A stretch of DNA of 64,000 nt. Source: Verrucomicrobiaceae bacterium (lineage in GTDB: Bacteria > Verrucomicrobiota > Verrucomicrobiia > Verrucomicrobiales > Verrucomicrobiaceae). Every line of letters starts with the position of its first letter. Positions within the stretch are counted from its first letter, which is position 1. The translations under genes were made by a program, and so were the position numbers. The notes below the pieces were generated by a model. That model made no database searches, was not told the DNA's origin, and saw only the letters and a program-made list of their open reading frames with translations. Of this stretch, positions 5,616-62,061 are shown piece after piece. The stretch covers positions 827 to 64,826 of the forward strand of contig JANOBO010000155.1 in NCBI GenBank assembly GCA_031411695.1, given 5' to 3'.

Positions 5616-8600
5616 TTATTCGATTTGAGCGGCGCCCTCCATGATCTCGACACGCAAATTCCTCAGCTCGCCGGCTTCCTTCGTCGCCAGGACGGACACG
5701 GTCGTTCTCCCTGCTGGAAGATGGGTCTCGACGGTGCTGGCTGGGTTTTGAATGATGGTTTCGCCGATGACCAAGATGACACCCTTTGTCTCGTTTAACC
5801 CCAGCTTCAACTTCCCTGCGGCGTCGAGCTTCAGCGCAAACTGCGCGATCTTGGGGAACCAGGGATACATCTTCACGGACGGCACGAGATCGTCCAGTGG
5901 CAGATCGCCGTTGACCTTGCTCAGCGCGAGGCCCCACGGGAACGGGTGAGCGGTGTCATGCAGGGCTTGAAGGCCGGTGTGGCGGACGAAATCTATGTCA
6001 GCCTGCTCCATTTTTCCCATCACCTTCCACGAGCGGACGAATCGGTTGGTCTTGATCTTGTAGTCGCCTTCCCGGCCCAACTCGGAGAGGAAGCGCACGA
6101 GATCCACGAACTCGTCTTCACGCAGGCTCGCGGTAAGGCCGGGCGGCATCATCGACACCGGACTCATCACGCTGGTAGCGATCTTGTCCTTCGGCACTTT
6201 TTGAAGTTGGTTCGCCGGATCGCGCACGACCACCTCGGCCTCCCCGTCCTGCACAAGGCCACCGGAGACGACCCCGCCATCCTTCGTGGTGATCACGATC
6301 ATGTGGTAGCCCTCCTTGATTTTTTTGCTCGGCTCCAGGAGCGACTCGATCAAGTAATCCACTGGCGCGCTGCCGCCGATGCTGACGAGGTTCGGCCCGA
6401 TCATCCCGCCGGCCTCGCCGATCGCGTGACAGCTCTGGCAGAGCAACTGCTGCCGCCGATACACCAGCTCGCCGCGCGCCGCGCTTCCAGCCGTCTTCAC
6501 TTTCGCCACCATCGCGGTCATTTCATCGGAGGTGAGCGGACGGTCCATCTGCTTCACTCCGCCGGCCTTCCTCAATGCCTCGATCAGCGGCCCCTGCACG
6601 CCTCGGCTGGATGCCATGCGGATGCCCTCCACCGCGATGCCGTCCGGGATTTTCTTGCCGGCCAGCTCTTTAGCGAGCACGCCGGGGAGTTGCTTGTTCC
6701 GCAAGAACGCGCCGATCACTGGCGCTGCCTCCGCGCCATCCTTTGCCTGCGACAAAAACTCGACCGCGCGCTTGGCCGCGAGCTGCGGGCCCACGTCCGC
6801 CATGCCTTGGATCGCCAGACTGCGCAGCGTGGGCTGTTCCTGAAACAGCTTGTCAAAAAAGTCGCGCGACTTTGCGCCGCCGAGCAGCGTGAGCCCCTGC
6901 ACCGCGCCCTCGCGGATCGGCGGCGGCGTGCCGGCCTCAATCACCAGATTCATCAGCGCCTCGCGCGCGGGCTCGATCTTCCACGCCCCCGCCAAGATCG
7001 TGGCTCGGTGCACGATCTCAGCTTTGGGATCGCCGAGCCATGCTTGGGAAATGGCCTCCGCGCCTGCCGGCTTCACGCCGCGGGCGGTGGCCGCCTTCAC
7101 GAGCGCATCCAGCAGGCCCATCTGCAGTGGGGCGAGCGCTGGATCATTTGCCATGTCGGCCATCTGCTTTGCCTGCGCGGCATCGGCGGCATCGCCGGCC
7201 ATCGCCAGCACGGCGGCGGCATCATCGGGCGCGAGCTTGCTTTTTTTCAGCACGGCAAAAAGGGAGTCCAGCGCGTCTCTGCGGCCGGTGGACTTCATGG
7301 CGAACACCATGTGCTTCGGATTGTCCAGCTTCAGCGTGCCTTTTGCGAAGGCCGGCATCCATACGTCCGCCTGCTCGCGGCCGATCTGCTCCAAAAGGAA
7401 ATCGAGATTCTCGTCTATCGCGCCGTCCAGCACGCGCAGCGCCACGCCGAAAGCCTGCGGCGTTTTCATATCCGCCAAAACCGCCAGCGCCCACAGCCGC
7501 ACCTGCGGATGCGCGTCCGCCACCGCGCCCTCGAGAACCTTCATCGCGCCCGGCAGCTCCTTCCACCGGTGCGTCAGGATGCGCAACGCCGCAGCCTTCA
7601 CACGGTGATCACCGATGGCCCACAGATCGCGCCACAGCTTCGGTGAAAACACGTTCACGCATTCATGCGTCCACGCCGCCTCGAGAAGGTCATGCGCGTG
7701 GTTTTTGTCGTCCTTTGCCAGCTTGCTCGTCCATTCATCCAAGGGTGTCACCACCTTCGCGGCTCCAGCGTCACGCAGTTCACGCTTTGCAAATTGCCGC
7801 GTCCAGCTTCGCGGTGACTTCAGCAACTCGAGCAGCTCCGCCGTGCTCGCGCCTTCAAATTTTGGCTTCTCGCTCAACGGCCTGCCTTTCACGCTCAAGC
7901 GCCAGATGCGCCCGTGGCTGCGGTCCCGCCGCTCATCGCGGAAATCCACCTCGCCGTGCTGGATGATGGGGTTGTACCAATCGCAAATGTACAGCGCGCC
8001 ATCGGGCCCGATCTTGGTGTCGATGGGACGAAACGCCGGATGTTTCGATGCCAGCACATCGCTCACTTGCGTCGAGACGTAGCCGCTCGCCGACTCCGTG
8101 AGCTTAAAGCGGTTGATGCGATTGCCGCGGAAATCACACAGCACCAGCGAGCCCTGCCAATCGTCCGGGAAGTGAGGGTCCTCGATGATCTCCAGGCTGC
8201 AATGCTTCGGCTGTCCCGGATTGAGACCCTTCTGGATCCGCTTCGCGCCGGGCGATGTGGCGAAGACGGTGCCGGGGAAAATGTAGTTCACACCCTCACC
8301 GCCCGCGCCATCTGCCGCGAAGCTCTGACCCCACCGGTCAAACTCGAAGCCCCAGGGATTGATCAGACCCTTGCTGATGACCTCCAGCCGCCGCGTCTCC
8401 GGCCGGAACTCCCAGATGCCGCCGCCCATCAGCCTGCGCACGCCATACGGCGTCTCGATGTGACTGTGGATGTAGATCGACTGGAGGAAATACAGCATCC
8501 CCTCCGGCCCCCAGCGGAACGTGTGCAGCAAATGATGCGTGTCCTCCGTGCCGAAGCCCGAGAGAAGGATCGTGCGCTCGTCCGCCTTCAGGTCGCCATT

Positions 8601-26042: not shown

Positions 26043-26836
26043 ACCTGCGAACCATCAGCGCGCTCGTCTTGCGCTACCTCTTTCTCTACACACGCTCACC
26101 GATGCGGCTGGTGGAGCTGGTTTTCTGGCCCGTCGTCGATCTCGTGGTATGGGGCAATGTCACCGTCTTCATCCAGCGCAACAGCACCGCGGACTTCGGC
26201 GGCTTCATCACCTTCATCCTCGGCGCGATGATCCTGTGGGACATCATGTTCCGCGCGCAGCAAGGCGTGGCCATCTCGTTTCTTGAGGACGTGTGGACGC
26301 GGAATCTGCTCAACGTCTTTGTCGCGCCCGTGCGCACTTCGGAATATCTCAGCGCCACGTTCTTCGTCGGCTTCCTGCGCATCCTCGTCACCGTCGTGGT
26401 GCTGGGTGTGATCTCGTACTTCGGATACTCGTTTAACATTTTCAGCCTGCACTGGTGGCTCATTCCATTCTTCGCGTGCCTGATGGTCTTCGGCTGGTCG
26501 CTCGGCATGATCTCCACCGCGCTGATCCTGCGCTGGGGTCAGGCGGCCGAATCGCTCGCGTGGGCCGTGCCGTTTTTTCTACAACCCGTGGTGGCTGCAT
26601 TTTATCCAGTCAAAGACATGCCTGCGTGGTCGCAACCCATCGCGTGGTGTCTGCCCGCCACTCACATCTTCGAAGGGATGCGCGAGGTGATGAAAACCGG
26701 CACCATGAGCTGGAGCGCGCTCGGCTGGGCTGCGGCGCTGAACGTGCTGTATCTCGCGCTGGCCGGGTGGCTGTTTGTCTGGGTCCTCGACCTCACGCGC
26801 AAGCGCGGCCTGCTCACGAAGTTCGCGACGCAGTAA
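26039..26836 (+). CDS. ABC-2 type transporter permease
   Basis: 265 aa, six hydrophobic segments, and a 4-nt overlap with the ATPase gene. Confidence 0.88.
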   Translation: MNLRTISALVLRYLFLYTRSPMRLVELVFWPVVDLVVWGNVTVFIQRNSTADFGGFITFILGAMILWDIMFRAQQGVAISFLEDVWTRNLLNVFVAPVRTSEYLSATFFVGFLRILVTVVVLGVISYFGYSFNIFSLHWWLIPFFACLMVFGWSLGMISTALILRWGQAAESLAWAVPFFLQPVVAAFYPVKDMPAWSQPIAWCLPATHIFEGMREVMKTGTMSWSALGWAAALNVLYLALAGWLFVWVLDLTRKRGLLTKFATQ

Positions 26837-26843
26837 TTTTCAA

Positions 26844-28703
26844 ATGCAAACCACAACCCTGCCGACCGACGAACCCGAATCCCTGCACCGCGCGGTGAGC
26901 GAGGCTGTGCGACGGCTGGCAGCGGGCGACATCGTGGCTTTGCCAACAGAGACGGTCTATGGCCTCGCGGCTGACGCGCTGGACGCGGACGCGGTCGCAA
27001 AGGTGTTCGCGGCAAAGGAGCGGCCGTCGTTTGATCCGCTGATCGTGCATGTGCCCACAAAGCAGGCTGTGCATGACGTGGCGGAGATTCCGGAGTCGAT
27101 CAAGAAAGTGGTGATCCAGCTCATTGAGCGCTTCTGGCCGGGGCCGCTCACGATCGTGCTGCCGAAGAAGGCGTGCGTGCCGGACATCGTGACCTCGGGT
27201 CTGCCGACCGTCGCGGTGCGCATGAGCTCGCATCCCGTTTTCAAGCGCATCAGCCAGGCGCTGGGGAAACCCATCGCCGCGCCGAGCGCGAATCGCTTTG
27301 GCTCGATCAGTCCGACATCCGCCTCGGCGGTGCAGGCCGAGCTTGATGGCCGCATCCCGCTGATCATTGATGGCGGCGCATGTTTGCACGGCATCGAATC
27401 AACGATCATCAAGATCGAGCCCGGCGGCACGACTTCAGAAAAAGTGGTGCAACCCGCTGGGTTGCCCTCAGAAAATGTGGGGCAAGCCGCTGGCTTGCCC
27501 GAGTCCGCTGCAACCCAGCGGGTAGCACCACCTTCAAAGCCGCTCATCACCATCCTGCGGCCGGGCCCGATCCTGCCGGACGATCTCAAGCAATATGGCC
27601 GTCTCCAACGCCACCAGAAGCAGCTGACCAACGAGCCGAGCGAGGCACCCGGTCAGCTCGCCTCCCACTACGCGCCGCGCACACCATTGCGGCTGCTCGA
27701 GTCACCGCGAGATTTCATCCCAGAGCCGGGGAAAAAATACGCGCTGCTGAGTTTTTGCGGTGATGCCGACGACGGCTACGTCGATCTCACAGACTGGGTA
27801 CAGGTGATGATCCTCAGCCCCGGCAACGGCAAGCTGCCCGAGGCTGCGGTGCGCTTCTTTTATGCTCTGCGCGAGCTGGACAAATGCGGCGCGGATGAAA
27901 TCATCGCCGAGCCGCTGCATGAGTTTGGCCTCGGCATTGCGATGATGGACCGGCTGCGCCGAGCGGCGAGCAAAGTGGGGCAACCCGCCGGGTTGCCCGA
28001 ATCCACTGCAACCCAGCGGGTTGCACCACTTTCGGCGGACGCGCCGGTTGCACCACCTTTCATTAACCTCTTCACGGATGTCTCGTACTTCGATCCGCGC
28101 GCAGACATCGAAAACGAAGAGCGCAATCTTCCGCACTGGCGTCAGCCCGGCAAAACCTACTTCGTGACCTACCTCTTGGGCGATGCGATCCCGCAGGAAA
28201 AACTGCGCCTGCTTCAGTCCGAGCGGAAGGCGTGGTTCGACTCTCACACGCAGCCTTGGTCGGACGAGGACCGGTTGCTCTATCACCAGCTTTTCTCCGC
28301 GCGCGTCCAAGACTGGCTCGATGCGGGCTACGGCTCATGCGTTTTGCTCGACGAGAAGGCCGCGCAAATTGTCGCGGACTCGCTTCGCCACTTTGATGGC
28401 CAGCGTTACGACCTGCTAGCGTGGGTGGTGATGCCGAATCACGTTCATGCGCTCGTGACGCCCAAAGATGGCTTTCATCTCGACCAAATTTTGCACTCCT
28501 GGAAATCCTTCACTGCGCATGAGATCAGCAAGCGACTCTCGCGCCACGGCCCGCTCTGGCAGCATGAGGGATACGATCACATCGTGCGGAAGCCGGAGGC
28601 GCTTTGGGCTATTGCCAAATATATTGCCGACAATCCGAAGAAAGCTGGCATCAGCACGCGGTTCGTCGAGTCACGAGTCACGCACACGCAGGATGGACGC
28701 TGA
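26844..28703 (+). CDS. tsaC: L-threonylcarbamoyladenylate synthase (Sua5/TsaC, YrdC + Sua5 domains) read through without a stop into a RAYT-like transposase domain
   Basis: The start is taken at MQTTTLPTDEP (ATG 26844, just after the upstream stop at 26836). The YrdC motifs are 'ALPTETVYGLAADA', 'KERPSFDPLIVHV' and 'SANRFGSISPT'. The Sua5 C-domain shows 'PGQLASHYAPRTPL...GLGIAMMDRLRRAAS'. The same frame then continues through REP sequence into the RAYT domain, up to TGA 28701-28703. Confidence 0.85.
   Translation: MQTTTLPTDEPESLHRAVSEAVRRLAAGDIVALPTETVYGLAADALDADAVAKVFAAKERPSFDPLIVHVPTKQAVHDVAEIPESIKKVVIQLIERFWPGPLTIVLPKKACVPDIVTSGLPTVAVRMSSHPVFKRISQALGKPIAAPSANRFGSISPTSASAVQAELDGRIPLIIDGGACLHGIESTIIKIEPGGTTSEKVVQPAGLPSENVGQAAGLPESAATQRVAPPSKPLITILRPGPILPDDLKQYGRLQRHQKQLTNEPSEAPGQLASHYAPRTPLRLLESPRDFIPEPGKKYALLSFCGDADDGYVDLTDWVQVMILSPGNGKLPEAAVRFFYALRELDKCGADEIIAEPLHEFGLGIAMMDRLRRAASKVGQPAGLPESTATQRVAPLSADAPVAPPFINLFTDVSYFDPRADIENEERNLPHWRQPGKTYFVTYLLGDAIPQEKLRLLQSERKAWFDSHTQPWSDEDRLLYHQLFSARVQDWLDAGYGSCVLLDEKAAQIVADSLRHFDGQRYDLLAWVVMPNHVHALVTPKDGFHLDQILHSWKSFTAHEISKRLSRHGPLWQHEGYDHIVRKPEALWAIAKYIADNPKKAGISTRFVESRVTHTQDGR
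27444..27531. repeat. REP family 1 cluster (REPIN-like) inside the sua5 interdomain linker
   Basis: The sequence is GTGGTGCAACCCGCTGGGTTGC ... GTGGGGCAAGCCGCTGGCTTGCCC GAGTCCGCT GCAACCCAGCGGGTAGCACCAC. The outer 22-mers are reverse complements of each other with 1 mismatch. Confidence 0.9.
27975..28058. repeat. REP family 1 doublet plus partial copy at the Sua5/RAYT junction
   Basis: GTGGGGCAACCCGCCGGGTTGCCC GAATCCACT GCAACCCAGCGGGTTGCACCAC lies at 27975-28029. An extra GGTTGCACCAC lies at 28047-28057. Confidence 0.9.
27975..28703 (+). mobile_element. REP-associated tyrosine transposase (RAYT, IS200/Y1 HUH family) domain
   Basis: 'NLPHWRQPGKTYFVTYLLGDAIP', the HUH motif 'LAWVVMPNHVHALVTP' and 'LWQHEGYDHIVRKPEALWAIAKYIADNPKKAGI' are present. 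There is no ATG between the end of Sua5 and the HUH motif. The only canonical in-frame start is the GTG at 27975, inside a REP. REP doublets flank it on both sides. Confidence 0.8.
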
Positions 28704-30384
28704 TCCAAAAGTGGGGCAAGCCTCAGAAAAAGTGGGGCAAGCCGCTGGCCTGCCCGAGTCCACTGCAACCCAGCGGGTAGCACCACATTCGAACTCCCAA
28801 GCCCGCTCCACCGGCGTCGTCTCCATCGCGATCCTTTGCAGCCGCGTGCTCGGACTGGTGCGCGACCAGTTGCTGAACGGCCTCTTTGGTTCCGCGTTCA
28901 CCGGCGTGTTCAGCATGGCGTTTCGCACCCCGAACATGCTGCGCGATCTCTTTGCCGAGGGCGCGCTTTCCACCGCGTTCGTCACCACGTTCTCGAAGAA
29001 GATGAAGACCGAGGGCGACGCTGCGGCTTGGCAGCTCGGGCGCAAAATGCTCTCACTCTCCGTCTGCTTCATGTCCATGGTCGCCCTCGCCGGCGTCGTG
29101 CTCGCGCCATGGATCTTCCGCCTGCTCACACCCGGCTTCTCCGAGGAGCACAAGATCCTCGGCATCTGGCTCGCGCAGATCATGTATCCCTTCATCGCCC
29201 TCGTCTCCGTCACCGCGCTGGTGATGGGCATGCTGAATGCGAAGAAAGTCTTCTTCATCCCCGCCCTCGCCTCCGCGTTCTTCAATCTCGGCTGCATCAT
29301 CGGCGGCGTCACCATCGCATGGGGGATCGATCCCGGCTTCCGCGATGGACATATCACCGAGCGCGGTCTCACCGGCTTCGCCATCGGCACCCTCATCGGC
29401 GGCGTGCTGCAGCTCCTCGTGCAGATCCCGTCGCTGCTGCGTGTCGGCTTCAAATTTGGACTCGACCTCGGATGGAAGGACTCCGGCGTGCGCGACGTGC
29501 TCCGCCTCATGTGGCCCTCGCTCCTCGCCGCCGGCGGCACGCAGATCACCGTGTTCATGAATTCCATCTTCGCCTCCATGACACCCGGCCACGCATCCTC
29601 CGTCGCCTGGCTCGGCAACGCGCAGCGGATGCAGCAGCTCCCGCTCGGCCTCTTCGGCGTCGCCGTCGCCACCGTCACGCTGCCCATGCTCTCTCGTCTC
29701 GCCACCGAGGGCATCACGCCCGCGTTCCGCGCCGCGCTGGCGAAAGGATTGCGCCTCGTGCTCTTCCTCACCCTGCCCTGCGCGCTCGGCCTCTCGCTGC
29801 TCGCGCATGAGATCATCTCCGTCATTTTCGAGCACGGAAAATTTACCGCCGATGACGTGACGCAGACCACCGGCCCGCTCCAGGCCTACGCCTTCGGCCT
29901 TGTCTTTTACTCCGCCGTGAAAGTGCTCCAGCCCGCTTTCTACACCATCGACCGTCGCTTCATCCCCATGATGATCAGCATCGGCATCATCATCTTCAAT
30001 CTCGTCGCAAACTACACGACCGTGATCGTGCTCGGCTGGGATCACAACGCCCTCGCCTGGGCCACCGCCATCGGTCTCGTGCTCAACTTCACCACGCTTT
30101 ACCTCTGCATGAGGAAATTCGCCAGCGGCCTCGAAACACGCACGCTCACTACCGCGCTGCTGCGGCTCGTCATTGCCGTCGCGCTCATGGCCGCCGTCTG
30201 CGTCGCCGCGCGCATGACAATCATGGCCGACTGGTCGCACCTCAGCCTGCTCATGCGCATAGGCACTCTCGGCGTCACCATCGCCGCCTCGGCGGCCGTG
30301 TATTTTTTCGCCACTGCTAAGCTCGGCATCGAGGAGTCGGGCGAGTTCCTGTCATTGCTCGGCAAGCGCTTCGGTCGTAAATAG
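28693..30384 (+). CDS. murJ: Lipid II flippase MurJ
   Basis: 'CSRVLGLVRDQLLNGLFGSAFTGVFSMAFRTPNMLRDLFAEGALSTAFV' is the MurJ N-terminal signature, and the protein has ~14 TM segments. The first usable starts are ATG 28693, GTG 28711 or GTG 28732, all upstream of or inside the REP. The track ORF begins at 28468, inside the RAYT domain. Confidence 0.9.
   Translation: MDADPKVGQASEKVGQAAGLPESTATQRVAPHSNSQARSTGVVSIAILCSRVLGLVRDQLLNGLFGSAFTGVFSMAFRTPNMLRDLFAEGALSTAFVTTFSKKMKTEGDAAAWQLGRKMLSLSVCFMSMVALAGVVLAPWIFRLLTPGFSEEHKILGIWLAQIMYPFIALVSVTALVMGMLNAKKVFFIPALASAFFNLGCIIGGVTIAWGIDPGFRDGHITERGLTGFAIGTLIGGVLQLLVQIPSLLRVGFKFGLDLGWKDSGVRDVLRLMWPSLLAAGGTQITVFMNSIFASMTPGHASSVAWLGNAQRMQQLPLGLFGVAVATVTLPMLSRLATEGITPAFRAALAKGLRLVLFLTLPCALGLSLLAHEIISVIFEHGKFTADDVTQTTGPLQAYAFGLVFYSAVKVLQPAFYTIDRRFIPMMISIGIIIFNLVANYTTVIVLGWDHNALAWATAIGLVLNFTTLYLCMRKFASGLETRTLTTALLRLVIAVALMAAVCVAARMTIMADWSHLSLLMRIGTLGVTIAASAAVYFFATAKLGIEESGEFLSLLGKRFGRK
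28711..28786. repeat. REP family 1 doublet immediately 3' of the RAYT stop, inside the murJ 5' end
   Basis: GTGGGGCAAGCC tcagaaaaa GTGGGGCAAGCCGCTGGCCTGCCC GAGTCCACT GCAACCCAGCGGGTAGCACCAC. Confidence 0.9.
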
Positions 30385-30396
30385 TGCGCGACTTTT

Positions 30397-30996
30397 ATGA
30401 ACCGCCATCGCCCCTGGCTCATCGCACTCACCGCACTCGTTCCGTTGTGGTTGGCCGTCGCCGTCGTGCAGCACCTGACGGACGACGACATCTCATCACC
30501 CGAGGAGACGATTGCCATCCTGGCCGATGCGCCCTGGCTGCACCCAGAAGCAGGGGCGGCATCCATCACGGCACGGGCCGCCCACATCGAGCTGGCGATC
30601 AAGAACATGAACCTGCTGAACTTCGAGCAGCGTCGCGAGGTGCGTGAAACCGGCGCGGACACGCTGAAGCAGTTCTTCGACTCGCTGACGCCGGAGGAGC
30701 GGAAAGTCTATGTGGACCGCACCGTGCAAAAGGCTTTCGACGCGGTGATCAAAGGCTTCAAGGCGATGGCACCCGCCGAGAGAAAAGACATGGTGAACCG
30801 CGTGCGCCGCGGCATCCGCCCAAACCGCACCGGACCCGACGCGCAGAAGATCGCGGATGAAGATCAGAAGATGTTCGACGAGTTCATCGACCTCGGCATC
30901 GAGGACTATCTGAAGAACGCGAGCACCGAAGAGAAGATGAAACTCGCGCCAGCAATCGAAGACATGCAGACACGAATCCGAGGCATTGGCCGGTGA
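30397..30996 (+). CDS. Hypothetical membrane-anchored protein
   Basis: 199 aa with an N-terminal TM segment 'PWLIALTALVPLWLAVAVV', followed by a charged helical region. I recognise no family. Confidence 0.7.
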   Translation: MNRHRPWLIALTALVPLWLAVAVVQHLTDDDISSPEETIAILADAPWLHPEAGAASITARAAHIELAIKNMNLLNFEQRREVRETGADTLKQFFDSLTPEERKVYVDRTVQKAFDAVIKGFKAMAPAERKDMVNRVRRGIRPNRTGPDAQKIADEDQKMFDEFIDLGIEDYLKNASTEEKMKLAPAIEDMQTRIRGIGR

Positions 30997-31000
30997 ACGA

Positions 31001-31058
31001 AAAGGTGGTGCAATCCGCTGCATTGCACTCTTAATGGCAAGCCAGCGGCATTTGCCAC
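31001..31058. repeat. Diverged REP family 1 copy (two hairpins)
   Basis: The sequence is aaaGGTGGTGCAATccgctgCATTGCAC tcttaa TGGCAAgccagcggcaTTTGCCAC. It shares the AAAGGTGGTGCAA leader with the 27444 and 34582 copies. Confidence 0.6.
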
Positions 31059-31160
31059 TTATGGCCCTCATCGATATTCAGCGTTCCCGGTCATGACACC
31101 GAGGGAGCGAAGCGGTCCCAAGGCTAGGAGAATCCATTTGCTGATGAGGAGCGGACGTGA

Positions 31161-31496
31161 TTGCTTCGCATCATGGTTTCAATGGAGGACATCCAGCGCT
31201 ACTGCAATGAGATTGCCGAAGCGTTCAAGCCGCAGAAGATCATCCTCTTCGGCTCTCACGCCTATGGGCGGCCGCACCGTGATTCCGATGTCGATGTGCT
31301 GGTGGTCATGCCTGAACATCGGCGTGCGGGGTATCACACCGTCATCAAGATCCGCGAAAAAGTTCGAGGACGCTTTCCCGTGGACCTTCTCGTGCGTGGC
31401 AGCCGCGACATCGCGCGCCGAGTCGAGGATCGTGAGTCGTTCATCCTCGACATCACAGAGAACGGGAGGGTCATGTATGAGGCGGGCCACGCATGA
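31161..31496 (+). CDS. Nucleotidyltransferase-domain protein (MntA-like antitoxin)
   Basis: 'ILFGSHAYGRPHRDSDVDVLVV' is the GS...D.D minimal nucleotidyltransferase motif. The start is uncertain (31161, 31173 or 31182). Confidence 0.8.
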   Translation: MLRIMVSMEDIQRYCNEIAEAFKPQKIILFGSHAYGRPHRDSDVDVLVVMPEHRRAGYHTVIKIREKVRGRFPVDLLVRGSRDIARRVEDRESFILDITENGRVMYEAGHA

Positions 31497-31857
31497 GTGG
31501 ATCAAAAAGGCGGAGGAGGATTTTCAGGCTGCTCTGGTGCTCTCGCGACAACGGAAGACGCCACTGCGTGACGCTGTCTGCTTTCACTGTCAGCAGAGCG
31601 CCGAGAAGTATCTCAAAGCGAGGCGGGAAGAAGCTGGGGTGCGCATCCCAAAAACACATGACCTTGAAGATTTGCTGAACCTCGCGACTCCTTTTGAGCC
31701 CCTGTGGACGGCGCTCGCACCTCCGCTCCGAAGACTCACGCCTTTTGGCGTGAAAATTCGTTATCCCGGCAATGAGGCCACTGACTCGCAGGTGAAAATG
31801 TCGACGCAGGACGTAAAGGTGGTCCGCAAAGAAGTCCGATTTGCCCTTGGACTCTGA
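31477..31857 (+). CDS. HEPN-domain protein (HepT-like toxin partner)
   Basis: This is the C-terminal 126 aa of track ORF 31093..31857, starting MRRATHEWIKKAEEDF. 'QQSAEKYLKA', 'HDLEDLL' and 'KIRYPG' are typical of PF05168-type HEPN. It overlaps the nucleotidyltransferase gene by 20 nt. Confidence 0.8.
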   Translation: MRRATHEWIKKAEEDFQAALVLSRQRKTPLRDAVCFHCQQSAEKYLKARREEAGVRIPKTHDLEDLLNLATPFEPLWTALAPPLRRLTPFGVKIRYPGNEATDSQVKMSTQDVKVVRKEVRFALGL

Positions 31858-31866
31858 GAATCACCC

Positions 31867-32763
31867 ATGGCCCTCATCGAAGTACAACACCTCACGAAAA
31901 GCTGGCGCAAAGAAAAGCCGGCGCTGGATGACGTTAGTTTTGAGGTCGGGTACGGGCAGATCGTCGGGCTGCTCGGGCACAATGGCGCGGGGAAGAGCAC
32001 GGTGCTCGGCATCACGCTCGGCATGGTGCGGCCCGACGGCGGCGAGGTGCGGATCGGCGGGCACTCGGTGCAGCAGCATCGCGCGCGGGCGCTGCAACAG
32101 ATCGGCGCGATCTTTGAGGCACCGGTGTTCTATGACTACCTGACGGGCTGGCAGAATCTGCGCGTGCTGTGCTCGCTCTCCGGCTATTGGGATGAGAAAG
32201 AGGCGAAGCGCGTGCTGAAGCTGGTGAACCTCCACGACCGCGCGGACAACCAAACCTCCACCTACAGCCACGGCATGAAGCAGCGGCTCGCGCTCGCACA
32301 GGCGCTGCTGCCGCGGCCGAAATGCCTGCTGCTCGACGAGCCGACCGACGGCCTCGACCCCGAGGGCATCCGCGAGTTCCGCGAGTTCGTGATGAAGCTG
32401 CGAACCGACTTCGGCATGACCATCCTGCTAAACTCACACCTTCTCGCCGAGGTCGAGCTCATGTGCGACCGATGCGTGATCCTCAAGGAAGGCCGCAAGA
32501 TCTACGAAGGCCCCGTGCCGTCGAAAGGCGACACGCAGAACCGCTACCAACTGCAGACGGCCGATCTAGAGATTGCGCGCGGCATCGCCGCGCGAGCCGG
32601 GGCCACCATCCACCCGGACAACACGGTGGAGCTGCCTCCCGACATTCTCGGCCACGAGTTCGTAAAGCGTCTGGTCGATGCAGGCGCGCGCGTGGATGGC
32701 TGGCACGCCGAGAAGAAAACCCTCGAGGACTGCTACCTCGAGCTCACCAGCGCCCCGCGATGA
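31867..32763 (+). CDS. ABC transporter ATP-binding protein
   Basis: It has Walker A 'GHNGAGKST', signature 'YSHGMKQR' and Walker B 'CLLLDEPTDGLD'. Confidence 0.93.
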   Translation: MALIEVQHLTKSWRKEKPALDDVSFEVGYGQIVGLLGHNGAGKSTVLGITLGMVRPDGGEVRIGGHSVQQHRARALQQIGAIFEAPVFYDYLTGWQNLRVLCSLSGYWDEKEAKRVLKLVNLHDRADNQTSTYSHGMKQRLALAQALLPRPKCLLLDEPTDGLDPEGIREFREFVMKLRTDFGMTILLNSHLLAEVELMCDRCVILKEGRKIYEGPVPSKGDTQNRYQLQTADLEIARGIAARAGATIHPDNTVELPPDILGHEFVKRLVDAGARVDGWHAEKKTLEDCYLELTSAPR

Positions 32764-33608
32764 AGCTCCTCCTTTGGCAATTTTACGCGGAGTGGCTGAA
32801 ACTGCTGAGGCGGAAGCGCACCTACATCGGGTTCGGCGCGTTCATCGCGATGGAGCTGGTGATCCTCGTGGTATTTCAGAGACAAGGACCGGAGGGGTTT
32901 TATCGGAGGATGATCTCGCGGCAAGGCGGCTTGTTTGAGAACTACTTTTCGGGACTGACCCTTGGCTTCATCGTGCTGGCTTTTTCGGCCGCTCTCCTTG
33001 GCTCCATTTACCTCGCGCTCGTGTCGGGCGACATCGTGGCTAAGGAAAGCGAAGATGGCAATCTACGCCTGCTGCTCGCCAGACCTGTGAGCCGTGTGCG
33101 TCTGCTGGCCGTGAAATATGCCACCTGCTCGTGCTATGCCTGGCTGCTGATCCAGTTCATCGCGTGGTCGGCGTTTCTGCTCGGCGTGAGCGTGCGCGGC
33201 TGGGGCGGAGGGATGTTTGTGTTCGCCCCTGAGCAAGGTCTGGCGGAGTTGTGGGATTGGCACGAGGGTCTGCGGCGGTATGCGCTTTGCTCCGTGTTTC
33301 TCGGCTTGAGCATGACGACGGTCAGCTCGGTGGCTTTCTTTTTCTCCTGCTTCCGCATCAAGCCGGCGGCCGCGACCATCACCGCGCTTTCCTACATGCT
33401 GATCGACACGATCCTCATGCGCACGAATCTGCTGCACAGCTATGAGTATCTGCTCATCACACCGTATCTCGAAACATGGATGCGCATGTTTCTCGATCCG
33501 ATCCCGTGGGCGCTCGTGATGCGGAACTACACCATCATCGGGGCCGTGAACTTGAGCTTGTTTGTGCTGGGCGCGGCTTGGTTTCAGACTCGGGATCTGA
33601 AATCGTGA
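32760..33608 (+). CDS. ABC-2 family permease
   Basis: The start MKLLLWQFYAEWLKLLRRK (ATG 32760) overlaps the ATPase stop (ATGA). There are six hydrophobic segments. The track ORF extends spuriously upstream to 32322. Confidence 0.85.
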   Translation: MKLLLWQFYAEWLKLLRRKRTYIGFGAFIAMELVILVVFQRQGPEGFYRRMISRQGGLFENYFSGLTLGFIVLAFSAALLGSIYLALVSGDIVAKESEDGNLRLLLARPVSRVRLLAVKYATCSCYAWLLIQFIAWSAFLLGVSVRGWGGGMFVFAPEQGLAELWDWHEGLRRYALCSVFLGLSMTTVSSVAFFFSCFRIKPAAATITALSYMLIDTILMRTNLLHSYEYLLITPYLETWMRMFLDPIPWALVMRNYTIIGAVNLSLFVLGAAWFQTRDLKS

Positions 33609-33615
33609 GCGCGTG

Positions 33616-33716
33616 AAAGTAGTCCAGGCACTCCGTGACTGGTGTGATCAGGTCCGCGTAGCATCATAGCTGCTACGAACCGGCTCCAGTCCCGCCGAGC
33701 GGGACTGGACTACTTT
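33616..33716. repeat. Full-length GTAG-type palindromic element (family 2)
   Basis: The sequence is AAAGTAGT-CCAGGCACtccGTGACTGG ... CGTAGCAtcatagcTGCTACG ... CCAGTCCCGCcgaGCGGGACTGG-ACTACTTT. The termini are 12-nt perfect inverted repeats. It is intergenic between the permease and panC. Confidence 0.8.
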
Positions 33717-33807
33717 GCGGAGCGCCAGCGGCCAAAGGCTGGAAGCCTCTTACCCTTGAGCGTCCGGAGTTCGATCCTCCGGTTGCGTTCTTGCGGACGT
33801 TGCTAGG

Positions 33808-34764
33808 ATGATTCGCATGAGGTTGATCGAAACGGTGACGGCGCTGCGCGAGTGGCGGTGTGAGAATGCGGCGCGCGTCTTCTTCGTGCCAACGATGGGC
33901 GCGCTGCACGAAGGGCACGCGGCGCTGGTGCGTGAGGCGCGGCGGATGGCTGGCGAGGACGGCCGTGTGGCGGTCAGCATCTTTGTGAACCCGCTGCAGT
34001 TCGGGCCAAATGAGGATCTGGATCGTTACCCGCGCACGCTGGAGGCTGATCTCGCGATGTGCGAGGCGGCGGGTGCGGACATGGTTTTCGCGCCGCCAGT
34101 TCGAGAAGTGTATTTTGAGAACAGGTCGATCCACATCGCCGAGTCGAGCCTGTCGCACGTCCTGTGCGGCGCGAGCAGGCCCGGACACTTCGACGGCGTG
34201 TGCACAGTGGTGGCAAAGCTGTTCAATCTCGTGCAACCGGATGACGCGGTCTTCGGCAAGAAGGACTACCAGCAGCTCTCGATCATCCGAAGGCTGCTGC
34301 GTGATCTGAATTTTCCGGTCGAGATCCACGGCCTGGAGACGGTGCGCGAGGCTGATGGGCTGGCGATGAGTTCGCGGAATCGTTACTTGAATGCTGACGA
34401 GCGTGCGCAGGCACCGACGTTGCGGCGTGCTTTGATCGCGGCGCGTGAAGCGTGGCTCGGCGGTGCGGAGGATGCGCGGGAGCTTGAGAAGATCGTCCGA
34501 GATGAAATCGCGGCGCACTCTCCACTTGGGAGGATCGACTATGTCTCGTGTGTCGATGCGGGTTCGCTCCGCGAACTAAAAGTGGTGCAAGCCGCTGGCT
34601 TGCAGCCGTCAGTGAAGGGCACAGCCAAACCCGATGGACTCCCTCCTGCAACCCAGCGGGTTGCACCACTTTTCGCAACCGAGCCGGTTGCATCACTTTT
34701 GGCGGGGGCGGTCTTTTTTGGTGCGACACGGCTGATCGACAACATCGAGCTGCGGCATCAATAA
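33808..34764 (+). CDS. panC: Pantoate--beta-alanine ligase with an in-frame REP-derived insertion near the C-terminus
   Basis: 'FVPTMGALHEGHAALV', 'VSIFVNPLQFGPNEDL' and 'KDYQQL' are present. The C-terminal 'ATRLIDNIEL' is preceded by ~40 extra aa (KVVQAAGLQPSVKGTAKPDGLPPATQRVAPLFATEPVASLL), encoded by REPs at 34582-34696. Confidence 0.93.
   Translation: MIRMRLIETVTALREWRCENAARVFFVPTMGALHEGHAALVREARRMAGEDGRVAVSIFVNPLQFGPNEDLDRYPRTLEADLAMCEAAGADMVFAPPVREVYFENRSIHIAESSLSHVLCGASRPGHFDGVCTVVAKLFNLVQPDDAVFGKKDYQQLSIIRRLLRDLNFPVEIHGLETVREADGLAMSSRNRYLNADERAQAPTLRRALIAAREAWLGGAEDARELEKIVRDEIAAHSPLGRIDYVSCVDAGSLRELKVVQAAGLQPSVKGTAKPDGLPPATQRVAPLFATEPVASLLAGAVFFGATRLIDNIELRHQ
34582..34696. repeat. 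REP family 1 cluster inside panC
   Basis: GTGGTGCAAGCCGCTGGCTTGC lies at 34582-34603, GCAACCCAGCGGGTTGCACCAC at 34648-34669 and GCAACCGAGCCGGTTGCATCAC at 34675-34696. Confidence 0.9.
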
Positions 34765-34765
34765 A

Positions 34766-34826
34766 GTGGTGCAAGCCGCTGGCTTGCGGCCATGATCGAT
34801 GACTGCAACCGAGTCGGTTGCACCAC
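34766..34826. repeat. Intergenic REPIN (two inverted family 1 REPs) between panC and nadB
   Basis: The sequence is aaaGTGGTGCAAGCCGCTGGCTTGC ggccatgatcgatgact GCAACCGAGTCGGTTGCACCACttt. It starts 2 nt after the panC stop and ends 3 nt before the nadB ATG. Confidence 0.9.
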
Positions 34827-34829
34827 TTT

Positions 34830-36434
34830 ATGAAGGAATACGATTTCATCGTTGTCGGCACGGGAGCGGGCGGTCTGAGCGCGGCGCTGCATGCGGCGGA
34901 GCACGGCCGCGTGGTGGTGCTGACGAAGCGCGGCGTGGACGACTCAAACTCGACCTGGGCGCAGGGCGGCATCGCGTGCGTGCAGAGCGAGGAAGACTCC
35001 ATCGAGCAGCATGTGAGCGACACACTCATCGCCGGCGGGGGCCTGTGCAACGAGTCGGCGGTGCGCACCATCGTCACGGAGGGCCCCGCGCGGATCGAGG
35101 AGCTGGTGAAGTGGGGCGTTCACTTTGATCAACGCGAGGCGACGGACGGGCACCTGGAATTCGACCTCACCCGCGAGGGCGGCCACACCCGGCGGCGCGT
35201 GCTGCATTCGCGCGATGCCACAGGTCGTGAGCTGACAGAGAAGCTGATCGCTGCGGTGCGGGCGCATCCGAACATCGAAGTGCTCGAGGAACACTTTGCC
35301 ATCGACCTCATCACAACCGCGAAGCTCGGTCATGTGGCGGAGGATCGCGTGCTCGGACTTTATGTGCTCGATGAGAAAAGCGGCGAGGTGGAGACCTTCC
35401 GATCGGACCGCGTGATCCTCGCGACGGGCGGCTGCGGGCGAGTTTATCTTTATACAACGAACCCGCAGATCGCGACCGGCGACGGGGTGGCGATGGCTTG
35501 GCGGGCGGGCGCGGCGGTGTCGAACATGGAGTTCATCCAGTTTCATCCGACGTGCCTCTACCATGCGGAGAACCGCTCCTTTCTCATCACCGAAGCGATG
35601 CGCGGCGAAGGTGCGCGGCTTGTGGACAAGGAAGGCAACGAATTCATGCAGAAGTACGACGAGCGCGGGTCTCTCGCGCCGCGTGACATCGTGGCCCGCG
35701 CGATCGACCACGAGATCAAGCGCACTGGCGGACCCTGCGTGTATCTCGACATCAGCCACAAGCCGGCAGAGTTCATCATCGAGCACTTCCCCAACATCCA
35801 CCGCGCCTGCCTCGAGCTGGACATCGACATCACCAAGCAGCCGATCCCCGTGGTGCCTGCCGCGCATTATCAATGCGGCGGCGTGCTCACTGACATCAAC
35901 GGAGCCACGACGATCCGCGGACTGGCCGCCGTGGGCGAGGTGGGCTGCACGGGCCTGCACGGCGCGAACCGCCTCGCCAGCAACTCGCTGCTCGAGTGCC
36001 TCGTCGTCTCGAAGCGCGCGGTCGATTTCATTTTGCAAAAGCTCCCCGTCGGCAAGACGCAGACACAGAGCTACGAGATCCCGCTGTGGAAACGCGGTGA
36101 CGCGCAGGACGTGGACGAACTCGTGGTCATCTACCACAACTGGGACGAGATCCGCCGGCTGATGTGGGACTATGTCTCCATCGTGCGCACCAACAAACGG
36201 CTCCAACGCGCGGCCGCGCGGCTGCGAAACCTGAAGCGCGAGGTGCAGGAGTTTTACTGGAACTTCCGCATCACCAGCGAGCTCCTCGAACTGCGAAACC
36301 TCGTCGAGACCGCGACACTCATCGTCGATTGCGCTGTGCGCCGTCAGGAAAGCCGCGGGCTGCATTACACGCTGGATTTCCCGGCTCCAAATCACTCCCG
36401 GCCGCCGACAGACACGGTCCTGCGGCGATATTGA
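34830..36434 (+). CDS. nadB: L-aspartate oxidase
   Basis: The start is taken at MKEYDFIVVGTGAGGLSAAL (ATG 34830). The track ORF starts at a TTG at 34818, inside the REP. 'TWAQGGIA', 'FIQFHPT', 'EAMRGEGA' and 'GLHGANRLASNSLLE' are present. Confidence 0.95.
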   Translation: MKEYDFIVVGTGAGGLSAALHAAEHGRVVVLTKRGVDDSNSTWAQGGIACVQSEEDSIEQHVSDTLIAGGGLCNESAVRTIVTEGPARIEELVKWGVHFDQREATDGHLEFDLTREGGHTRRRVLHSRDATGRELTEKLIAAVRAHPNIEVLEEHFAIDLITTAKLGHVAEDRVLGLYVLDEKSGEVETFRSDRVILATGGCGRVYLYTTNPQIATGDGVAMAWRAGAAVSNMEFIQFHPTCLYHAENRSFLITEAMRGEGARLVDKEGNEFMQKYDERGSLAPRDIVARAIDHEIKRTGGPCVYLDISHKPAEFIIEHFPNIHRACLELDIDITKQPIPVVPAAHYQCGGVLTDINGATTIRGLAAVGEVGCTGLHGANRLASNSLLECLVVSKRAVDFILQKLPVGKTQTQSYEIPLWKRGDAQDVDELVVIYHNWDEIRRLMWDYVSIVRTNKRLQRAAARLRNLKREVQEFYWNFRITSELLELRNLVETATLIVDCAVRRQESRGLHYTLDFPAPNHSRPPTDTVLRRY

Positions 36435-61968: not shown

Positions 61969-62061
61969 TGTGTTAAAGCGACGTAGATTCGACTGGCAGT
62001 CGAATCCGGTTCGAACCCCTCGGGGAGTAAAAAAATCGTGGTCACCTAAGGCACGCTCACC

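What the first reader, a model, noticed from the sequence alone, without database searches (positions are those of the whole stretch)
27444..28786. REPtron: a RAYT-like Y1/HUH transposase domain bracketed by its own REP doublets
Residues ~430-642 of the 26775..28703 ORF carry three motifs: 'NLPHWRQPGKTYFVTY', a HUH motif 'VVMPNHVHALV', and 'LWQHEGYDHIVRKPEALWAIAKYIADNPKKAG'. This is the layout I know from REP-associated tyrosine transposases (COG1943 / Y1_Tnp). Directly 5' (27975-28029) and 3' (28732-28786) sit near-identical 55-nt modules: GTGGGGCAA[C/G]CCGC[C/T]GG[G/C][T/C]TGCCC - GA[A/G]TCCACT - GCAACCCAGCGGGT[T/A]GCACCAC. Each half is a GTGG tail plus a 7-9 bp hairpin, and the halves are inverted relative to each other (REPIN-like). 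Further copies lie at 27444-27531, 31001-31058, 34582-34696 and 34766-34826. That is six loci within 7.4 kb and none elsewhere in the 64 kb. RAYT/REP systems are best described in Proteobacteria; as far as I know, one in a PVC-type genome with this REP consensus is not a textbook case.
Basis: partly seen in the sequence, partly recalled or inferred. Interest (0 to 1): 0.8.

Follow-up and report, generated by a model that had tools for sequence, protein, structure and literature searches.

The report
REP transposase fused into housekeeping gene
A domesticated hairpin-cutting transposase (RAYT) and its short palindromic repeats sit so seamlessly in a Verrucomicrobium operon that the transposase is read as the tail of the tRNA-modification enzyme Sua5 and the repeats are translated as protein linkers; relatives of this transposase are embedded in frame in dozens of other host proteins, which I found described nowhere.

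Summary
There are 13 GTGG-footed REP hairpins at 27444-34826 (0.01 expected by chance) and none elsewhere in the 64 kb. They bracket a Y1/HUH domain whose best matches are the RAYT profile and the E. coli TnpA_REP structure. The REPtron reading is supported.

The ORF is Sua5 (YrdC + Sua5_C) fused in frame to the RAYT. REPs are also translated inside the Sua5 linker, inside PanC, and in the MurJ N-terminus.

The sua5-RAYT-murJ arrangement is old and syntenic in Verrucomicrobiaceae relatives. The RAYT there is fused, separate or lost. In this lineage it is under purifying selection as strong as the enzyme (dN/dS 0.09).

A second clade carries REP-RAYT-REP inside the Sua5 interdomain linker. Among the 150 best cluster representatives of this RAYT clade, 65 are fused, and 36 of those are embedded with at least 100 host residues on both sides. 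Hosts include LeuRS, ValRS, XseA, HypF, CarB, helicases and R-M enzymes.

REPs, REPtrons and intragenic REPs in Verrucomicrobia were already published. ORF-embedded RAYTs were not found in the literature searched. Verdict: a new variant of a known kind.

The parts
26844..28703 (+). Single ORF, sua5::RAYT, 619 aa from ATG 26844 (an upstream TTG at 26775 gives 642 aa). It reads Sua5/TsaC2, then a REP-encoded linker, then the RAYT domain, then a TGA stop.
   Evidence: An identical 619-aa protein, P0001, is on record from independent contigs.
26916..27419 (+). YrdC catalytic domain of Sua5 (PF01300).
   Evidence: E 8e-52, aa 48-215 of the 642-aa ORF. TIGR00057 scores 166 bits against a cut-off of 123. 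Invariant residues are kept.
27444..27531 (.). REP triplet (two forward, one reverse) translated in frame as an insert of about 35 aa in a Sua5 loop (…EKVVQPAGLPSENVGQAAGLPESAATQRVAPP…).
   Evidence: The insert is absent from the unfused orthologues P0007, P0011 and P0012. It is predicted disordered, with pLDDT below 50 at residues 199-221.
27615..27971 (+). Sua5 C-terminal domain (PF03481).
   Evidence: E 3e-22, aa 281-399.
27975..28056 (.). Inverted REP doublet (27975-27996 forward, 28008-28029 reverse) plus a degenerate third REP. It replaces the sua5 stop codon and encodes the Sua5-RAYT linker (KVGQPAGLPESTATQRVAPLSADAPVAPP).
   Evidence: Empty-site orthologues end ...RRAA(A/V)K.. followed by a stop. 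pLDDT is below 50 at residues 380-401.
28056..28700 (+). RAYT (Y1/HUH) domain. LPHW strand at the N-terminus, HUH = HVH at 28440-28448, WQHEGYDH motif, catalytic Tyr at 28620-28622.
   Evidence: AF2 pLDDT 91.4. Best Foldseek hit is 4ER8_A, E 1e-6. dN/dS is 0.089 against L097.
28711..28786 (.). Truncated half-REP (28711-28722) followed by an inverted REP doublet (28732-28753 forward, 28765-28786 reverse), 3' of the RAYT. It lies inside the 5' end of murJ.
28693..30384 (+). murJ. The ATG at 28693 overlaps the RAYT stop (ATGGACGCTGA). No start codon exists between the REP doublet and the conserved MurJ core, so the doublet is read as an N-terminal extension.
   Evidence: TIGR01695 matches from aa 112 of ORF 28468, which is about nt 28801. 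The same layout is seen in L097.
31005..31058 (.). Intergenic REP doublet (the second arm is degenerate) after the 199-aa gene.
   Evidence: An orthologous doublet is present in L097 at 8237-8291.
34582..34696 (.). REP cluster (one forward, two reverse) translated in frame inside panC (33808-34764). Net insert is 32 aa near the C-terminus.
   Evidence: The PanC of L097 lacks it. TIGR00018 matches aa 4-261 only.
34766..34826 (.). REP doublet that exactly fills the gap between the panC stop (TAA 34762-34764) and the nadB ATG (34830).

Best explanation
This is a REPtron: a domesticated Y1/HUH tyrosine nuclease (RAYT) together with its cognate REP hairpins (a GTG(G) foot, an 8-9 bp stem and a 3-nt loop, mostly as inverted doublets). 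It has long resided at the sua5|murJ junction of a Verrucomicrobiaceae lineage.

Shown:
- In this genome a REP doublet replaces the sua5 stop codon, and the RAYT has no ATG of its own.
- Ribosomes translating sua5 must therefore read through the REP-encoded flexible linker and produce a three-domain Sua5-RAYT protein.
- The RAYT stop overlaps the murJ start, which preserves the stop/start overlap between sua5 and murJ seen at two of four empty sites.

Inferred:
- The RAYT domain binds GTGG-footed hairpins in single-stranded DNA and cuts and rejoins them through its HUH-metal site and Tyr616.
- This maintains and spreads REP doublets, which have seeded the neighbourhood.
- Copies that landed in frame in tolerant loops or termini (Sua5 linker, PanC, MurJ N-terminus) persist as translated, disordered peptide inserts.
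- The fusion itself is most likely a tolerated by-product of REP insertion in a tightly packed operon. It is not a new enzymatic function, because relatives carry the same RAYT at the same place as a separate gene.
For: RAYT identity:
- NF047646 scores 82.2 bits (cut-off 80) and PF01797 scores 30 bits (cut-off 23).
- The only PDB sequence hit is 4ER8, with HUH and Tyr aligned.
- The AF2 model has pLDDT 91, and its best Foldseek hit is 4ER8_A (E 1e-6), followed by IS200/IS608/ISDra2 TnpA.

REPs:
- 13 copies against 0.01 expected.
- Strong stem covariation.
- REP doublets lie on both sides of the RAYT here and in L097 and L104.

Fusion is real:
- There is no stop between the domains.
- The same architecture occurs in P0002-P0006 and P0008, at 51-72% identity, from independent assemblies.
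- The REP-encoded stretches are the only two disordered segments of the AF2 model.

Selection: dN/dS is 0.089 for the RAYT, against 0.10 and 0.14 for the two Sua5 domains.

Old syntenic residence with a labile fusion:
- L097, L103 and L104 are fused.
- L105 and L106 have a separate RAYT between sua5 and murJ.
- L096, L100, L101 and L102 have none, and L100 carries decayed REP remnants.

REP gain since divergence: the panC insert and the panC/nadB doublet are absent in L097.
Against: - All 13 REPs lie within 7.4 kb. The other 56 kb hold none, so a large dispersed REP population in this genome is not shown.
- No activity data exist.
- In-frame GTG (27975) and TTG (27993) codons inside the REP could allow separate initiation of a RAYT protein.
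- Some fused relatives show decaying motifs (P0008 QSNHVH; P0005 YDA instead of YDH; P0006 SHQH), so function is not kept everywhere.
- The NCBIfam score is only just above its cut-off.
- dS is near saturation, so the dN/dS values are approximate.
Confidence: 0.75

Rival explanations
1. The fusion is adaptive. The HUH domain has been recruited to work with Sua5 or the tRNA t6A pathway, or Sua5 targets or regulates the nuclease. The protein would then be a new bifunctional enzyme, not a hitch-hiking REPtron.
For: - Sua5 was hit twice independently: at the C-terminus (class 1) and within the interdomain linker (class 2).
- HypF carries the RAYT directly after its YrdC-like domain.
- Several other hosts handle tRNA or nucleic acids: Dtd, LeuRS, ValRS, XseA and a DinG-like helicase.
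- The RAYT is under purifying selection as strong as the enzyme.
Against: - The same RAYT sits at the same locus as a separate ORF in L105 and L106.
- Close relatives have lost it entirely.
- Class 2 is polymorphic at 98% identity of the host domain.
- Hosts also include CarB, a Mur ligase, radical-SAM enzymes, dehydrogenases and R-M enzymes.
- REPs always accompany the RAYT and differ between clades, as expected for REP-specific nucleases.
Confidence: 0.1
2. The RAYT is mainly made as a separate protein from an internal start in the REP foot (GTG 27975 or TTG 27993). The read-through fusion would be a minor or irrelevant product.
For: - Stand-alone homologues are annotated with starts inside or just before REP-encoded sequence.
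- In L105 the murJ ATG lies inside a REP hairpin.
- In-frame GTG and TTG codons exist in the doublet.
Against: - There is no stop codon, so the fusion must be made whenever sua5 is translated.
- No promoter-like signal rises above chance.
- The candidate start codons lie inside a stable hairpin.
- In class 2 and the other internal insertions, the downstream host domains are conserved and require read-through.
Confidence: 0.2
3. This is a fossil. The RAYT domain is inactive, and the REPs are static relics kept only because deleting them would damage the operon.
For: - REPs are confined to one 7.4-kb stretch of the window.
- Motif decay is seen in some fused relatives.
- REPs have decayed in L103 and L100.
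Against: - dN/dS is 0.089 and the HUH, WQ and Tyr motifs are intact here and in L097.
- Two REP loci are specific to this lineage.
- Near-identical REP copies (0-1 mismatch) occur 7 kb apart.
Confidence: 0.1
4. This is an assembly or annotation artefact: a missed stop, a frameshift, or a chimeric contig joined at repeats.
For: REPs are repeats and could mislead assemblers. MAG-derived sequence is error-prone.
Against: - The identical protein is on a second NCBI contig.
- The same fusion is found in at least 6 diverged clusters from different projects.
- Synteny is conserved on both sides.
Confidence: 0.02

Closest known systems
E. coli REPtron / TnpA_REP (RAYT), PDB 4ER8 (PMC3333891, PMC3479197)
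   Same: - Y1 HUH fold with an HUH motif and a single Tyr.
- The gene is bracketed by REPs that carry a 5' GT[AG]G foot and a hairpin.
- It is syntenic and vertically inherited, and is frequently lost by deletion.
   Different: - About 18% identity.
- An extra block of about 65 aa with two to three helices after strand beta1, and an N-terminal LPHW motif.
- The REP foot is GTGG, with an 8-9 bp stem and a 3-nt loop.
- No own start or stop separation: the RAYT is translated as the C-terminal domain of Sua5.
GTAG/GTGG REPs and intragenic REPs of Opitutus terrae and other PVC bacteria (Di Nocera 2013, PMC3733652)
   Same: - Verrucomicrobial REPs with a GTGG tag.
- Many dimers.
- REPs inside ORFs that encode 20-30 aa.
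- REPtrons present.
   Different: That paper treats RAYTs as separate genes. It reports no translational fusion or in-frame embedding of the RAYT itself. The REP stem sequence here is different.
TnpA_Y1 subclass 2.4 / 2.7 (Quentin 2018, PMC6006769; Bertels group 4)
   Same: - Motif signature NHVH / WQ / YIxxNP.
- GT[AG]G long REPs.
- In-frame REP insertions are tolerated; in that paper they lie inside tnpA_REP itself.
   Different: - Assignment was not tested by phylogeny.
- The beta1-alphaA insertion seen here is not listed for those subclasses.
- That study discarded unexpectedly long proteins as 'gene fusions or annotation errors', which is the class described here.
Rickettsia palindromic elements (RPEs) (from my own knowledge and as cited in PMC3733652)
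   Same: Palindromic repeats inserted in frame into housekeeping ORFs and tolerated as peptide inserts.
   Different: RPEs are longer, have no GTGG-foot REP structure and no associated transposase gene. Here the nuclease gene itself is also in frame.
Inteins (lifestyle analogy only)
   Same: A selfish nuclease-related element carried in frame inside conserved, often nucleic-acid-handling, host proteins.
   Different: There is no Hint or splicing domain. The insert stays in the mature protein as an extra domain on disordered tethers.
IS200/IS605 insertion sequences
   Same: Y1 HUH transposase fold, hairpin-recognising single-strand chemistry.
   Different: - The IS200 profile scores 19.9 bits against a cut-off of 55.
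- The Y motif is RAYT-type, not Y---Q.
- There is no tnpB.
- The element keeps one conserved, syntenic position between sua5 and murJ across relatives, which is unlike an IS; its copy number in this genome could not be tested.

Membership tests
RAYT / TnpA_REP | Y1 HUH nuclease fold with an HUH motif and one catalytic Tyr | tested here: met
   HVH lies at 28440-28448. The Tyr at 28620-28622 aligns to the first Tyr (residue 115) of the YIYINP motif of 4ER8; that this is the catalytic Tyr of 4ER8 rests on my own knowledge. The AF2 model's best Foldseek hit is 4ER8_A, E 1e-6, TM 0.62.
RAYT / TnpA_REP | Curated profile match above its cut-off | tested here: met
   NF047646 scores 82.2 against a cut-off of 80 for the domain alone and 78.3 for the whole ORF. 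PF01797 scores 27.9-30 against 23. This is borderline but consistent.
RAYT / TnpA_REP | Gene flanked by its REPs (REPtron) | tested here: met
   Doublets at 27975-28029 and 28732-28786. The same arrangement is seen in L097 and L104.
RAYT / TnpA_REP | Cognate REP = 5' GT[AG]G foot plus an imperfect palindrome | tested here: met
   A GTGG foot is conserved. The stem covaries at pairs 5:23, 10:18 and 12:16, and 0 of 500 shuffles reach the observed value.
RAYT / TnpA_REP | REP family dispersed in many copies through the same genome | tested here: inconclusive
   13 copies lie in 7.4 kb and none in the other 56 kb. The rest of the genome is not available. Related MAGs carry the REP on 3-15 contigs each, as lower bounds.
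RAYT / TnpA_REP | Vertically inherited at a conserved position | tested here: met
   sua5-RAYT-murJ is found in L097, L103, L104, L105 and L106. Copy number per genome is not testable.
RAYT / TnpA_REP | REP-specific single-strand DNA cleavage and joining | not testable with these tools
   This needs biochemistry.
TnpA_Y1 subclass 2.4/2.7 (Quentin 2018) | Placement in the published phylogeny or HMM set | not tested
   Only the motif signature was compared (NHVH, WQ, YIADNP) with Table 1 of PMC6006769.
IS200/IS605 insertion sequence | TnpA_IS200 profile, Y---Q motif, optional tnpB, multiple identical copies | tested here: not met
   NF033573 scores 19.9 against a cut-off of 55. The Y motif is YIADNP. 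The neighbouring genes are sua5 and murJ.
Sua5 / TsaC2 threonylcarbamoyl-AMP synthase | YrdC domain plus Sua5_C domain with conserved catalytic residues | tested here: met
   PF01300 E 8e-52 and PF03481 E 3e-22. TIGR00057 scores 166 against 123. Invariant columns are retained.
Intein | Hint/splicing domain with junction residues | tested here: not met
   Pfam finds only PF01300, PF03481 and PF01797 in the ORF.
RPE-like in-frame palindromic inserts | Repeat inserted in frame in a host ORF without disrupting it | tested here: met
   The Sua5 linker carries about +35 aa relative to P0007. PanC carries +32 aa relative to L097. This is a resemblance in behaviour only; the repeat family differs.

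The most novel reading that the evidence does not exclude
This RAYT clade of PVC bacteria habitually lives as a REP-RAYT-REP cassette embedded in frame inside host genes. Hosts seen include Sua5, HypF, LeuRS, ValRS, XseA, a DinG-like helicase, CarB, a Mur ligase, radical-SAM enzymes and type I/IIG R-M enzymes. Translated REPs serve as flexible tethers. The host gene supplies transcription and translation, and embedding shelters the element from imprecise deletion. Three allelic states exist: empty, solo REP doublet, and full cassette. Together these would imply that whole REPtrons are gained or lost as units. This would be an intein-like lifestyle without splicing, and an unrecognised source of natural enzyme-HUH chimeras.
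Probability: 0.4. Interest if true: 0.85.

Novelty: new variant of a known kind. Interest (0 to 1): 0.66.

Why it matters
RAYTs are the best-known domesticated bacterial transposases, yet what they do for the cell, how they are expressed and whether REPtrons move as units are still open questions.

- **Expression.** This locus shows a RAYT with no translational identity of its own. It is read through from an essential gene across its own repeat.
- **Generality.** The wider search shows this is not a one-off. About half of the best 150 cluster representatives of this clade are fused to host proteins or embedded within them. Large surveys discarded such proteins as annotation errors.
- **Natural experiments on gain and loss.** There are fused, separate and lost states at one locus. 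In a second clade there are empty, solo-REP and full-cassette alleles at 98% host identity. These allow REPtron gain and loss and the cost of insertion to be measured.
- **Protein engineering.** The set amounts to a catalogue of permissive domain-insertion sites in essential enzymes.
- **Biotechnology.** These are natural enzyme-HUH chimeras, which is relevant to HUH-tag technology.
- **Annotation.** Long 'Sua5', 'LeuRS' or 'HsdR' proteins in PVC genomes may be hosts with an inserted nuclease.

Tried and rejected
1. **REP loci kept free of stop codons in all six frames.** The six loci have 3-6 open frames, no different from random windows of equal length. Only the 27972-28032 doublet is open in all six.
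2. **When present at sua5|murJ the RAYT is always fused.** Rejected by L105 (own ATG, 24 nt after the sua5 stop) and L106 (overlapping, out of frame).
3. **The window's RAYT-less REP triplet marks the same site as the class-2 RAYT insertion.** It lies about 20 residues upstream.
4. **Class-2 insertion is fixed in its clade.** Most close relatives are unfused. One relative at 98% identity has a solo REP doublet.
5. **Rfam.** No family matches, either in 26-36 kb at E<=1 or in the whole window at gathering thresholds.
6. **Promoter scan.** Nothing above chance upstream of the RAYT.
7. **Subclass assignment.** Done from motifs only. It fits 2.4/2.7 but remains unresolved.
8. **Literature.** Searches for a RAYT-Sua5 or ORF-embedded RAYT report found nothing. 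This covers the open-access library only.
9. **The aaRS fragment P0224.** It ends inside the RAYT and may be a pseudogene, so it is not used as evidence.

Full report
**1.

All copies lie between 27444 and 34826, against 0.01 expected from shuffles. A looser head-plus-outer-stem pattern adds nothing elsewhere in the 64 kb.

- a triplet at 27444-27531;
- inverted doublets at 27975-28029, 28732-28786, 31005-31058 and 34766-34826;
- a cluster at 34582-34696.

Each unit is a GTG(G) foot followed by an 8-9 bp stem and a 3-nt loop. I aligned 72 distinct copies from the window and related genomes. The stem shows 61 double-sided (compensatory) changes, against 19.6 +/- 3.5 in column shuffles (0 of 500 as high). 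Pairing collapses when the partner column is slid. The two arms of a doublet often carry different, internally compensated stems (GCAAGCC/GGCTTGC versus GCAACCC/GGGTTGC). Selection therefore acts on the individual hairpins.

**2. The domain is a RAYT**

- The C-terminal 215-240 residues of ORF 26775/26844-28703 match Pfam Y1_Tnp at 27.9-30 bits (cut-off 23). They match NCBIfam 'REP-associated tyrosine transposase' at 82.2 bits (cut-off 80). The IS200 model reaches only 19.9 of 55 bits.
- The only PDB sequence hit is 4ER8, E. coli TnpA_REP bound to a REP. HVH and the Tyr of KYIADNP align to its HUH and to the first Tyr of its YIYINP motif.
- An AlphaFold model built on 59 homologues has pLDDT 91.4. 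Its best Foldseek hit is 4ER8_A (E 1e-6, TM 0.62), followed by ISDra2, IS200 and IS608 transposases.
- The motif signature (NHVH, WQ, YIADNP) resembles subclasses 2.4/2.7 of Quentin et al.. I could not test placement.
- The family carries an extra helical block after the first strand and an invariant LPHW motif.

The REPtron interpretation is therefore supported.

**3.

Residues 48-215 and 281-399 of the ORF are the YrdC and Sua5_C domains of threonylcarbamoyl-AMP synthase. No stop codon and no ATG lie between Sua5 and the RAYT. The linker (KVGQPAGLPESTATQRVAPLSADAPVAPP) is the REP doublet itself.

REPs are translated in three further places:
- **Sua5 loop.** A REP triplet is translated as an insert of about 35 aa that is absent from unfused orthologues.
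- **PanC.** A REP cluster adds 32 aa near the C-terminus relative to the orthologue in L097.
- **MurJ.** murJ must start at ATG 28693, which overlaps the RAYT stop (ATGGACGCTGA). No start codon follows the 3' doublet, so that doublet encodes a MurJ N-terminal extension.

The last doublet exactly fills the space between the panC stop and the nadB start.

In a full-length AlphaFold model, the only two segments with pLDDT below 50 are residues 199-221 and 380-401. These are the two REP-encoded stretches. The three domains themselves are confident.

**4. History of the locus**

Homologue searches and contig look-ups show sua5 followed directly by murJ, with stop and start overlapping in L096 and L100, in relatives that lack the element (L096, L100, L101, L102). 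L100 retains decayed REP remnants at the junction.

Other relatives carry the RAYT at exactly this place, in one of two states:
- **Fused, as here.** L097 (72% identical protein), L103 and L104, which encode three of the six fused protein clusters P0002-P0006 and P0008.
- **A separate ORF.** In L105 the RAYT has its own ATG 24 nt after the sua5 stop, and the murJ ATG lies inside a REP. In L106 the RAYT overlaps sua5 out of frame.

In rough NJ trees, fused and syntenic stand-alone RAYTs of this clade are interspersed, and fused Sua5s are scattered among unfused ones. The sua5-RAYT-murJ arrangement is therefore old and vertically inherited, the RAYT is often lost, and the fusion state is labile.

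Between the window and L097 the RAYT domain has dN/dS 0.089 (pN 0.15, pS 0.69). That is as constrained as YrdC (0.10) and Sua5_C (0.14). Four REP loci are orthologous between the two genomes, with diverged but compensated stems. The panC insert and the panC/nadB doublet are specific to the window. This points to REP gain since the split.

**5. REP dispersal**

The window's own genome could not be scanned.
- 42 stretches are from Verrucomicrobia. They include 15, 7, 6, 5 and 3 different contigs of five Verrucomicrobiaceae MAGs.
- The other 53 are singletons from unrelated phyla.

Window-type 'AAAGTGG...CCACTTT' inverted doublets occur in MAGs SSF29 and VAR_61. The family is therefore dispersed in relatives. 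Here it is seen only near the RAYT.

**6. A wider pattern**

**Class 2 Sua5 fusions.** A second, monophyletic group of Sua5 proteins carries the RAYT between YrdC and Sua5_C. It is flanked on both sides by a different GTGG REP (GTGGCATCGGCT..AGCCGATG), read as GIGFQPMSDRQDADAT, in a different synteny. It is polymorphic:
- P0259 is 98% identical in YrdC and has only a solo REP doublet at that spot.
- More distant relatives have an empty linker.

**Other hosts.** Searching with the RAYT domain alone finds stand-alone RAYTs across Planctomycetes, Verrucomicrobia, Lentisphaerae and Kiritimatiellia. It also finds fusions to Dtd and HsdR.

**Exhaustive search of 1.84 billion cluster representatives.** This gives 4373 hits at E<=1e-10. 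The best 150 break down as follows:

| Arrangement | Count |
|---|---|
| RAYT with at least 100 host residues on both sides | 36 |
| C-terminal fusion | 17 |
| N-terminal fusion | 12 |
| Stand-alone | 72 |
| Undetermined | 13 |

Pfam on 30 of the long proteins shows split but otherwise normal hosts: LeuRS, ValRS, XseA, a DinG-like helicase, HypF (RAYT right after its YrdC-like domain), B12-radical-SAM enzymes, a Mur ligase, CarB, dehydrogenases, HsdR and Eco57I/MmeI-type enzymes. In 17 of 28 proteins checked, the same REP-encoded peptide recurs on both sides of the RAYT.

Caveats: representatives over-count fusions, because each new host founds a new cluster. Some N-terminal 'fusions' may be truncated ORFs.

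**7. Mechanism**

Shown:
- The fusion ORF exists and REP-encoded disordered linkers join its domains.
- The catalytic motifs are intact and the domain is under purifying selection.
- REPs bracket the RAYT, and the RAYT stop overlaps the murJ start.

Inferred:
- The HUH/Tyr domain recognises GTGG-footed hairpins in single-stranded DNA and cuts and rejoins them, as TnpA_REP does. This maintains and spreads REP doublets locally.
- Copies that land in frame in loops or termini survive as peptide inserts.
- The RAYT is expressed by read-through from sua5.
- Reading through to the murJ start preserves operon coupling, which would explain why in-frame arrangements persist.

I rate the fusion as a tolerated by-product and not a new function, because separate and absent states coexist at the same locus.

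**8. Novelty**

Already published:
- GTAG/GTGG REPs, REPtrons and intragenic REPs in Verrucomicrobia (PMC3733652).
- In-frame REP inserts inside tnpA_REP (PMC6006769).

PMC6006769 explicitly discarded unexpectedly long proteins as 'gene fusions or annotation errors'. I found no report of a RAYT translationally fused to, or embedded in, host proteins.

The locus is thus a new variant of a known kind. It is also an entry point to a possibly general, undescribed lifestyle of this RAYT clade.

Noticed in passing
window 31161-31857: A nucleotidyltransferase (PF01909) / HEPN (PF05168) pair, a toxin-antitoxin-like module, sits right after the REP doublet at 31005-31058. It is present at the same place in L096 and absent in L097, where the REP doublet abuts the ABC transporter gene.
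   Followed up: partly
window 27449-27465, 27480-27500, 28735-28755 (minus strand): Forward REPs preceded by an A-run read on the minus strand as a hairpin plus T-run, so they look like intrinsic terminators. The region holds 17 terminator-like sites against 6.1 +/- 2.8 in shuffles. They might block antisense transcription into the operon.
   Followed up: no
L050 490-720, L066 4410-4600, L076 20-190, L009 7090-7200: Other Verrucomicrobiaceae MAGs carry direct arrays of 'CCCCCGTGG' REPs. Several different compensated stems (GCAAGCC, GCAAGCA, GCAAGCT, GCGAGCC) alternate within one array, unlike the inverted doublets of the window.
   Followed up: no
L085 3582-3900 (Prosthecobacter debontii MAG): A tandem unit of about 147 nt is bounded by back-to-back REPs (GTGGGGCAAGCC.. 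/ GTGGCGCAAGCC..) and repeated at least twice.
   Followed up: no
L105 4640-4730; window 34762-34832: REPs supply gene punctuation. In L105 the murJ ATG lies inside a REP stem (CAAGATGGTTGC). In the window the panC TAA overlaps the AAA flank of a REP, and the nadB ATG follows CCACTTT directly.
   Followed up: partly
P0395 (984 aa HypF homologue): The RAYT is inserted directly after the YrdC-like domain of HypF and is flanked by GRRDACDTVPQASRL on both sides. This is the same relative position as in class-2 Sua5. It could be coincidence or a shared permissive linker.
   Followed up: partly
P0108 (574 aa): A protein call joins Sua5 domains to a MurJ domain (PF03023) in one ORF. Read-through of the sua5|murJ junction may therefore also occur without a RAYT.
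   Followed up: no
window 53138-53163 and 61983-62008: Two isolated GTGG/GTAG-footed perfect hairpins are unrelated in sequence to the REP family (GTGGCTGCGGCGTTCTGCCGCAG; GTAGATTCGACTGGCAGTCGAATC). They may be chance matches or another low-copy REP type.
   Followed up: no
window 27444-34700, in-ORF REPs: All translated forward REPs use the same reading frame (K-V-[VG]-Q-[AP]-A-G-L) and all translated reverse REPs read A-T-Q-R-V-A-P, although other frames are also open. There are too few independent cases (3-4) to test.
   Followed up: partly
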